Assembly (NCBI GenBank): GCA_951406725.2 | Contig: OX597818.1 | Coordinates: 89,094,001-89,158,000, forward strand | DNA length: 64,000 bases | Direction: 5' to 3' | Source: Octopus vulgaris | Lineage: Eukaryota | Shown here: in pieces, positions 2,646 to 3,432 of the stretch | Layout: each line of letters begins with the position of its first letter | Numbering within the stretch: the first letter of the stretch is position 1 | Notes under the pieces: generated by a model | Database searches by the model: none | Seen by the model: the letters and a program-made list of their open reading frames with translations, nothing else | Told to the model about the DNA's origin: nothing | Made by a program: the position numbers and the translations under genes

Positions 2646-3432
2646 AAAATAAATATAAGAGAGTGGTCACTATATGGCTCACTCTAGCACCAGTTAATCC
2701 AAAAGGTTTCAACCACTAAAAATACATGTTTCCCATGAAAGTCAGTACGATTGTTAGCTCACACGGACAGGGCAAATAAAAAATAACAAAAATACAGATT
2801 ATTTTGGGACAATTGTTTCGCTATTAATGAATTAAATGTAATTTTACTTACAAAAAAAATCCACTTGTAGCTCGTCAGCCAAAACTATCTGGATGAAATC
2901 CACTCAATCACACGCCAGATTTTACCATAACGATAAATACGCGTGTGGTTCAATTGATTACATCCGACGTTATAATTCAAATGCCCCAACTAACAGCGCG
3001 CCAAACTTTCACGGAAAACAAATACAGCATTTAGAAATAAATGCAGCATAATTATAATTAATTAATAAGGGTGAGAGAATTAGATACTAATTTAATAGTA
3101 TATCCATTCAACACCAAGTGGCCTAGTGCTCCGAGAAACCTGGATTATTATAATATTTTATAATATATTATAATATTTTTACAAAATAAATATAAGAGAG
3201 TGGTCACTATATGGCTCACTCTAGCACCAGTTAATCCAAAAGGTTTCAACCACTAAAAATACATGTTTCCCATGAAAGTCAGTACGATTGTTAGCTCACA
3301 ATATATATATTATAAAATAATATATTATAAAATATTATAATAATCCAGGTTTCTCGGAGCACTAGGCCACTTGGTGTTGAATGGATATACTATTAAATTA
3401 GTATCTAATTCTCTCACCCTTATTAATTAATT
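2646..3432 (-). mobile_element. (TA)n-embedded PLE pseudo-LTR/retrozyme-like element, ~537-bp unit with partial direct repeat and inverted tail
   Basis: 2646-2764 repeats at 3183-3300. About 3058-3170 is inverted at about 3325-3432. (TA)n on both sides; contains a hammerhead. Confidence 0.8.
2802..2884 (-). ncRNA. Type I hammerhead ribozyme with expanded stem II
   Basis: Minus strand: TTTTGG-CTGACGA-GCTA[~44 nt]TAGC-GAAAC-AATT-GTC-CCAAAA. Stem I 6 bp, complete core, palindromic stem III, GUC site. Confidence 0.9.

What the first reader, a model, noticed from the sequence alone, without database searches (positions are those of the whole stretch)
2646..3432. 537-bp unit with canonical core and expanded stem II, a distant relative of the 43.6-kb element
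Seen: TTTTGG-CTGACGA-GCTA..TAGC-GAAAC-AATT-GTC-CCAAAA on the minus strand. Short motifs CGCGCCAAA, TTAATTAA..AGGGTG, GGCCTAGTG and GG(T/C)TTCAACC are also present in 43635-44568, while stems I-III differ completely in sequence. Inference: structure is conserved across diverged subfamilies, and the shared motifs are candidate cis-elements.
Basis: partly seen in the sequence, partly recalled or inferred. Interest (0 to 1): 0.7.

Follow-up and report, generated by a model that had tools for sequence, protein, structure and literature searches.

The report
Hammerhead retrozyme with conserved docking fold
This is one copy of an abundant, non-coding 537-base jumping repeat that carries a predicted self-cutting RNA motif and sits in a TA microsatellite as two back-to-back arms; the short motifs it shares with two diverged relatives are mostly the paired strands of one predicted RNA fold next to the places where the arms end, which likely marks where a Penelope-type enzyme grips the RNA and starts copying it.

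Summary
2646-3435 is a 537-bp non-coding unit with one canonical type I hammerhead (52-nt stem II, weak palindromic stem III). It is inserted in (TA)n as a 1.22-unit arm plus an inverted arm, the Penelope-like (PLE) signature. It is homologous to the 43.6-kb unit and, more distantly, to the 17.3-kb unit. The family is abundant in public DNA runs and joins unit to unit.

The shared motifs are collinear, but no more conserved than overall homology predicts, and two are lost in the 17.3-kb unit. What is kept is pairing. Of 18 helix pairs, 17 hold in the 43.6-kb unit (3 compensatory) and 18 in the 17.3-kb unit (7 compensatory). A structure model built from this unit alone finds the 43.6-kb unit; a sequence-only model does not. 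All three elements end their arms at two equivalent sites in or beside this fold, as expected from the two internal start sites of a PLE reverse transcriptase.

Verdict: a new member of a known class (non-LTR retrozymes) with a candidate recognition fold. Cleavage, RNA circles and the partner enzyme are unshown. The scan found such elements before on other DNA, including this genome.

The parts
2585..2645 (.). (TA)n microsatellite target, left flank
2646..3300 (-). Arm 1: 1.22 units in hammerhead sense (template positions 45 to 537, then 1 to 162, counted from the cleavage site); its outer end at 2646 is site 1
2764..3300 (-). One 537-bp unit, 32% GC, longest ATG-ORF 19 aa in sense and 52 aa in antisense even when read as a circle
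2646..2763 (-). 118-bp partial tandem copy, identical to 3183-3300
   Evidence: 118 of 118
2795..2891 (-). Type I hammerhead: stem I 7 bp + 5 bp extension, core 2878-2872, 52-nt stem II 2871-2820, GAAA 2819-2816, 2-bp stem III with palindromic loop, predicted cut between 2808 and 2807
2997..3005 (-). TTTGGCGCG, matches the in vitro E2F consensus TTTSSCGC; shared with B at 44248; function untested
3053..3056 (-). Site 2 (internal copy): AU-rich single strand 3' of the last hairpin; the inverted arm ends at the equivalent position
3070..3115 (-). Predicted hairpin closed by GGTG/CACC just 5' of site 2 (same closing in B, GGTA/TACC in C)
3117..3254 (-).
3301..3316 (+). 16-nt AT-rich filler at the head-to-head junction
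3317..3435 (+). Arm 2: inverted copy of about 3171-3053 (template about 174 to 292); its outer end is site 2
3436..3482 (.). (TA)n microsatellite target, right flank
43637..44568 (+). Relative B: 484-bp unit, 68-nt stem II, two arms ending at template 235 and 130, which align to A's 289 and 162
17275..17796 (.). Relative C: diverged two-armed copy with a decayed hammerhead end; arms end 168 and about 298 nt after the equivalent of the cut site; same helices

Best explanation
This is a genomic copy of an abundant non-coding 537-nt repeat with a type I hammerhead motif, lying in (TA)n as two head-to-head arms, and it was likely copied there by a Penelope-like element (PLE) protein that likely recognises a predicted RNA fold shared with its relatives and likely starts copying at two fixed internal sites. 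Shown: the anatomy, the abundance, the unit-to-unit joint, the homology with B and C, the kept pairing and the matching arm ends. Inferred steps: (1) tandem copies are transcribed, and the multimer or a hammerhead-cut circle is the template, because arm 1 runs through an intact cut site and past one unit; (2) the PLE protein binds the domain at template 91-275; (3) its GIY-YIG nuclease nicks both strands of (TA)n and the two 3' ends prime at site 1 (a loop inside the domain) and site 2 (single strand after the last hairpin); (4) the two cDNAs stop at variable points and are joined head to head with a few filler bases. The hammerhead probably needs a dimer or protein help, and this copy, with one hammerhead, cannot release a unit-length RNA by itself.
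For: Partial tandem, inverted truncated copy and (TA)n target match the PLE description in PMC8557442. 1,242 and 2,359 contigs lie on the unit in two DNA runs, and the joint that goes back 537 occurs in 4 of 4 runs; the listed loose ends at 3300 continue into the unit itself in 4 of 4 runs. Eight different low-depth inversion joints, each in one run, show a variable inner junction. Depth stays high into the TA run after site 2 (27,790-108,737) against the private junction bin (807-20,257) in 4 of 4 runs. A162 maps to B129-135 and A289 to B235 under 5 of 5 scoring schemes; B's ends are 130 and 235, C's are 168 and about 298. A structure model from A alone finds B end to end (29 bits, E 3.8e-6, best of 6 hits); the sequence-only model finds neither domain (best 5.3 bits). 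Helix pairs: A vs B 13 same, 1 one-sided, 3 compensatory, 1 broken; A vs C 10, 1, 7, 0. Of 18 listed family variants 3 break a predicted pair against 8.2 expected, P=0.005. PMC11167929 shows a PLE protein that cuts and extends both strands of AT-rich DNA, starts at two internal stem-loop sites and assists its own hammerhead.
Against: No partner ORF is in the window, and the published octopus Hydra hammerhead differs in sequence. The published start sites are 30-40 nt apart; here the spacing is 105-130 nt. Site 1 as a fixed end rests on three elements and has no read-level test. C scores only 16.6 bits (bias 17.4), level with microsatellite false hits at 16.9 and 19.2 bits; its outer helix has near-zero pairing probability, its inner helix falls from about 0.8 to 0.33 in a shorter context, and I chose its inner register by hand. 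B's outer helix has probability 0.19 in the whole circle. RNAalifold on a plain MAFFT alignment did not recover these helices. The active hammerhead fold is 5.6 kcal/mol above an inactive one, about 1e-4 of the monomer ensemble. Summed contig depth is not a count, and contigs that continue internally may align a few bases into the TA run.
Confidence: 0.68

Rival explanations
1. One fixed start only. Site 2 is the true end; the other arm is primed by chance microhomology between (TA)n and any AU-rich stretch, as in L1 twin priming (recalled), so site 1 is not an encoded signal.
For: In A the inverted arm begins at about template 174, right after the end of the other arm at 162, as twin priming on one RNA would give. 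Only site 2 has read support.
Against: B and C end their other arm at the position that aligns to A's site 1. In B the two arms are not adjacent on the template (130 versus 299).
Confidence: 0.13
2. The element is the truncated end (pseudo-LTR stump) of an autonomous PLE and has no independent non-coding RNA cycle.
For: The layout is that described for truncated PLE insertions (PMC8557442). An earlier scan note reads similar fold-backs this way (e1-8829949). No genome was available to look for long copies.
Against: The unit's end joins its own start in 4 of 4 runs, listed loose ends at that point continue into the unit, depth covers all 30 bins, and there is no ORF.
Confidence: 0.09
3. The shared motifs are DNA-level promoter elements (for example an E2F site plus an AT-rich box) that drive transcription, as the first reader's 'cis-elements' could mean.
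For: TTTGGCGCG matches TTTSSCGC (PMC3069401) and is in different predicted folds in A and B. Loose ends of sister subfamilies show related words at this place. Only 6 such sites lie in the 64 kb and 2 are in A and B.
Against: Three 9-nt identities are within expectation for this homology. The other motifs change in C in step with their pairing partners. This reading explains only one of the four motifs.
Confidence: 0.05
4. The shared words and folds are leftover common ancestry plus the general tendency of these RNAs to self-pair, with no specific role.
For: Only three diverged sequences; the helices were picked after folding; the whole units are strongly self-paired (z -6.7 and -4.7).
Against: Compensatory changes at homologous pairs. 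All 15 tested pairs survive 28.5% random substitution in only 176 of 100,000 trials. The structure model outperforms the sequence model.
Confidence: 0.05

Closest known systems
Metazoan non-LTR retrozymes (Cervera and de la Pena 2020, PMC7229834; passages and parts 2-3 of 6 read; Li, Clavereau and Pollet, bioRxiv 10.64898/2026.07.22.740005; parts 1-3 of 5 read)
   Same: Non-coding, low-GC tandem unit with one type I hammerhead; weak stem III with a short loop like the axolotl motifs that cut better as dimers; strongly self-paired predicted circle; proposed PLE dependence.
   Different: Unit of 537 bp, above the 150-450 bp of the 2020 paper but inside the 51-972 bp of the preprint; stem II of 52-68 nt; this copy has one hammerhead, so it is not 'active' by the preprint's rule; the two-armed insertion with fixed ends and the covarying domain are not described in the parts read.
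Insertions of endonuclease-bearing Penelope-like elements, (TA)n-targeting Hydra and Naiad clades (Craig et al. 2021, PMC8557442; passages, section 11 and supplement rows seen)
   Same: Partial tandem, adjacent inverted 5'-truncated copy, (TA)n target, hammerhead in the repeat (Hydra); Hydra-1_Obim and two octopus Naiads are listed with (TA)n preference.
   Different: No RT or GIY-YIG ORF; the Hydra-1_Obim hammerhead differs in all stems; spacing between the two ends is 105-130 nt, not a 30-40 nt tail.
Poseidon element PAc of the green anole (Frangieh et al. 2024, PMC11167929; parts 1-2 of 4 read)
   Same: AT-rich target, both strands extended, two internal start sites in a stem-loop downstream of the hammerhead, hammerhead inactive without protein.
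   Different: PAc is autonomous and its sites are in the ORF, in an AC-rich stem-loop; here the sites are AU-rich, farther apart and inferred from genomic ends only.

Membership tests
Type I hammerhead ribozyme | Core CUGANGA, GAAA, NUH, G10.1-C11.1 and A15.1-U16.1 pairs, three stems with stem I open | tested here: met
   strict descriptor 1 hit versus 0.01 per shuffled window
Type I hammerhead ribozyme | Match to an Rfam hammerhead model | tested here: not met
   No hit at gathering score or at E up to 10; the long stem II is the likely cause (inference); this is a library result, not a defining trait of the ribozyme
Type I hammerhead ribozyme | Self-cleavage at the predicted site | not testable with these tools
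   Active fold predicted rare in the monomer; gap smaller in a dimer, 3.8 versus 5.6 kcal/mol
Non-LTR retrozyme | Hammerhead-bearing unit repeated head to tail | tested here: met
   118-bp partial tandem; joint going back 537 in 4 of 4 runs
Non-LTR retrozyme | No protein coding, low GC | tested here: met
   32% GC; longest ATG-ORF 19 aa sense, 52 aa antisense
Non-LTR retrozyme | Unit size in the reported range | tested here: met
   537 bp is inside 51-972 bp though above 150-450 bp
Non-LTR retrozyme | Expressed as linear and circular RNA | tested here: inconclusive
   No holder is on record as RNA; a closed-loop contig came from a run only guessed to be RNA
'Active' retrozyme locus (preprint's rule) | Two consecutive units each with a full hammerhead | tested here: not met
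   One hammerhead at this locus
PLE-type insertion | Partial tandem plus adjacent inverted truncated copy | tested here: met
   eight other inversion joints in reads
PLE-type insertion | AT-rich or (TA)n target | tested here: met
PLE-type insertion | Two fixed ends separated by a tail | tested here: inconclusive
   Site 2 supported by reads; both sites align in A, B and C; spacing longer than 30-40 nt; site 1 not tested in reads
Autonomous Penelope-like element | ORF with RT and GIY-YIG nuclease | tested here: not met
Partner of a named PLE clade (Hydra, Naiad, Neptune) | Shared terminal sequence or fold with an autonomous element of the host | tested here: inconclusive
   Four short motifs searched in the supplement gave no hit seen in an octopus record; the Hydra-1_Obim hammerhead differs; no genome held

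The most novel reading that the evidence does not exclude
Diverged retrozyme families in this genome keep a defined, covarying RNA domain (two stacked helices closing a multibranch loop, then a hairpin) that is the docking and positioning signal for a PLE reverse transcriptase, placing two start sites about 105-130 nt apart so that a protein dimer copies one RNA from both strands of a nicked (TA)n. It would be a structural recognition element for non-autonomous PLE RNAs, playing the part that template-boundary structures play for telomerase.
Probability: 0.35. Interest if true: 0.68.

Novelty: new member of a known kind. Interest (0 to 1): 0.46.

Why it matters
How animal retrozymes are copied into DNA is open; PLE proteins are the suspected carriers, and the preprint read here says the mechanism remains to be worked out. 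This family gives a concrete test: named helices with natural compensatory changes and two predicted start sites that can be broken and restored in the in vitro PLE assay already published. The element itself is an ordinary kind of mobile repeat.

Tried and rejected
No whole genome is held, so no MEME run and no genome-wide end mapping were possible. Rfam: nothing at gathering score in the window; the MIR6217 hits (72 and 70 bits, gathering 110) come from the inverted repeat and are rejected. No RNA holder listed. Run X5, only guessed to be RNA, gave one 565-nt contig that closes on itself (535+30, depth 15.4), and X19 gave 73 contigs; no silent control stretch was laid and tandem DNA gives the same loop, so this is not counted as expression or as a circle. 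A general 'CCCT near TA junctions' rule, suggested by likeness to telomeric repeats, failed: 5 of 79 junctions against 2.3 expected, p=0.076. The motifs taken singly are marginal (p=0.054 for two matches of 18 bits or more); the collinear chain gives p=0.0025 in shuffles, but 2 of 974 and 4 of 970 real window segments score as high. RNAalifold on a MAFFT alignment of A, B and C did not recover the helices. The two halves of C alone were marginal against A (12 and 17 of 500 shuffles); the joined C template was significant (0 of 1000), and B vs C was not significant locally (292 of 1000). D and E units show no clear sequence homology to A or B (z up to 3.8). B's scores with two AT-rich fold-backs (z 4-5) look compositional. 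A 22-nt motif found nothing in metagenome or viral contigs. Sequence look-ups in earlier findings gave nothing for A or B. Literature searches that returned no paper on octopus hammerhead retrozymes or on this fold: (listings only, open-access library); PMC13282606 has no mention of hammerhead, ribozyme or retrozyme in its main text. The preprint's supplements were not seen and it samples no mollusc in the parts read; Repbase and Dfam were not available and may already hold this repeat.

Full report
Observation. The region is animal DNA rich in microsatellites; earlier scan notes call the genome octopus-like, which fits my recall of its SINEs but was not established by my calls. A strict descriptor gives this one hit in the window against 0.01 per window in 100 shuffles. 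Rfam misses it.

Anatomy. The element lies between two (TA)n runs. Arm 1 (3300 to 2646, minus) is 1.22 units; its last 118 bases repeat its first 118 exactly, which sets the period at 537. Arm 2 (3317-3435, plus) is an inverted copy of an internal stretch, joined head to head through a 16-nt AT-rich filler. There is no ORF of note, even read as a circle. This is the layout that PMC8557442 describes for Penelope-like elements: partial tandem, adjacent inverted truncated copy, and (TA)n preference in Hydra and Naiad clades (passages and section 11).

Family. Twenty of 24 listed public runs hold at least half of the sampled words. In two DNA runs 1,242 and 2,359 contigs lie on the unit, most above 95% identity, covering all 30 bins; the joint that goes back 537 bases is seen in 4 of 4 runs. 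Summed depth is in the hundreds of thousands, while private junctions have depth 13-48. That is not a count, but it points to a young family with very many copies (inference). Eight different inversion joints, each in one run, show that the inner junction varies between copies. Depth stays high into the TA run beyond the end of arm 2 (27,790-108,737) compared with this copy's private junction (807-20,257) and with the other edge of the laid stretch (57,880-308,267), so many copies end at this site. Overlapping contigs inflate these sums, and the other end was not tested in reads.

Relation to the 43.6-kb (B) and 17.3-kb (C) units. Outside the hammerhead, A and B align with a local score of 79 against 32+-5 in 300 shuffles, and A is B's best match among 868 window segments. 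C is marginal arm by arm but significant when its two arms are read as one template (score 82, 0 of 1000 shuffles); B vs C is not significant locally. The four motifs are collinear. They are not more than homology predicts: three 9-base identities are seen and 1.3-3.7 expected, and C lacks two of them.

What is conserved is pairing. A and B fold independently into nearly the same domain: an outer helix, an inner helix that ends at the CACTAG motif, three or four hairpins inside, and then a hairpin closed by GGTG/CACC (tree-edit distance 92 against 181+-18, 0 of 300 shuffles). A covariance model built from A alone finds B end to end as best of 6 hits (29 bits, E 3.8e-6) and places C on the same helices at 16.6 bits, which is no higher than microsatellite false hits; the sequence-only model finds neither. 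Over 18 pairs, B keeps 17 with 3 compensatory changes and C keeps 18 with 7, the inner register of C being my choice. Of the 18 variants that one search listed, 3 break a predicted pair against 8.2 expected (P=0.005); both variants in the inner helix keep pairing and the one in the core is at the free N7 position. Against this, a plain alignment fold did not recover the helices, and the outer helix is weak in B's full circle and absent in C's ensemble.

Arm ends. Counted from the cut site, A's arms end at 162 and 289-292, B's at 130 and 235, C's at 168 and about 298. A's two positions map to B129-135 and B235 under 5 of 5 scoring schemes. Site 1 lies at a hairpin loop inside the domain in A and B; site 2 is in the single strand after the last hairpin. 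Two unrelated hammerhead units in the window have the same two-armed form with ends at 168/238 and 174/221.

Mechanism. PMC11167929 (parts 1-2 of 4) shows a purified PLE protein that nicks and extends both strands of AT-rich DNA, starts reverse transcription at two internal stem-loop sites that match genomic ends, is predicted to be a dimer, and is needed for its hammerhead to cut. The simplest reading of A is the same reaction on a non-coding passenger RNA: the protein binds the conserved domain, primes at sites 1 and 2 from the two nicked (TA)n strands, and the two cDNAs are joined. The template is a multimer or a circle, since arm 1 passes an intact cut site. The active hammerhead fold is 5.6 kcal/mol above an inactive one in the monomer and 3.8 in a dimer, in line with dimer or protein dependence as for the axolotl motifs in PMC7229834. 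Binding, priming, cleavage, transcription and circles are all inferred. TTTGGCGCG matches the E2F consensus and may be a promoter word, on two sequences only.

Comparison and verdict. It meets the testable features of a non-LTR retrozyme family and of a PLE-type insertion. It is not an autonomous PLE and not an 'active' two-hammerhead locus. The class is known, a 2026 preprint argues its PLE origin, and this scan has noted similar elements in this and other genomes. I found no description of the covarying domain in the searches listed under Tried and rejected or in earlier notes. Repbase, Dfam and the preprint's supplements were not seen. Score: new member of a known kind, with a testable candidate recognition fold.

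Noticed in passing
window 33162-34706 and 50153-50250: 362-bp unit in (TA)n, three tandem copies plus inverted arm, minimal type I hammerhead with a variant core (TTGAAAA); the second fragment ends at the same site as the right arm.
   Followed up: partly
window 45345-46519: 359-bp unit in (TA)n with complex inversions and a hammerhead-like motif with core CCGATGA and palindromic stem III.
   Followed up: partly
window 50376-50411: Isolated minimal hammerhead (4-bp stem I, no stem III loop) in a common dispersed repeat.
   Followed up: no
window 26615-27251, 44905-45299, 46705-46865, 50512-50948, 55744-56466: Further fold-back (inverted) elements, several flanked by or holding TA runs; no hammerhead found by my scans.
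   Followed up: partly
window 44355 and 44422 (and the inverted copy): B's hammerhead has an A.C mismatch at the base of stem II in both copies, so the template RNA already carried it.
   Followed up: no
loose ends at window 2768, 2987, 3016 and 3129: Sister subfamilies share the hammerhead end or the CACTAGGCC block and then diverge; one has a doubled E2F-like word and one resembles C next to the inner helix.
   Followed up: no
window 36835-37317 (minus): 160-aa open frame that looks by eye like the C-terminal part of a non-LTR retrotransposon ORF; not searched.
   Followed up: no
window 6215-6950: Tandem array with a 36-bp subunit and a 180-bp higher-order period.
   Followed up: no
window 57760-58370 and 63640-64000: Tandem copies (period about 184) of a dispersed SINE-like repeat also at 8608 and 47636.
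   Followed up: no
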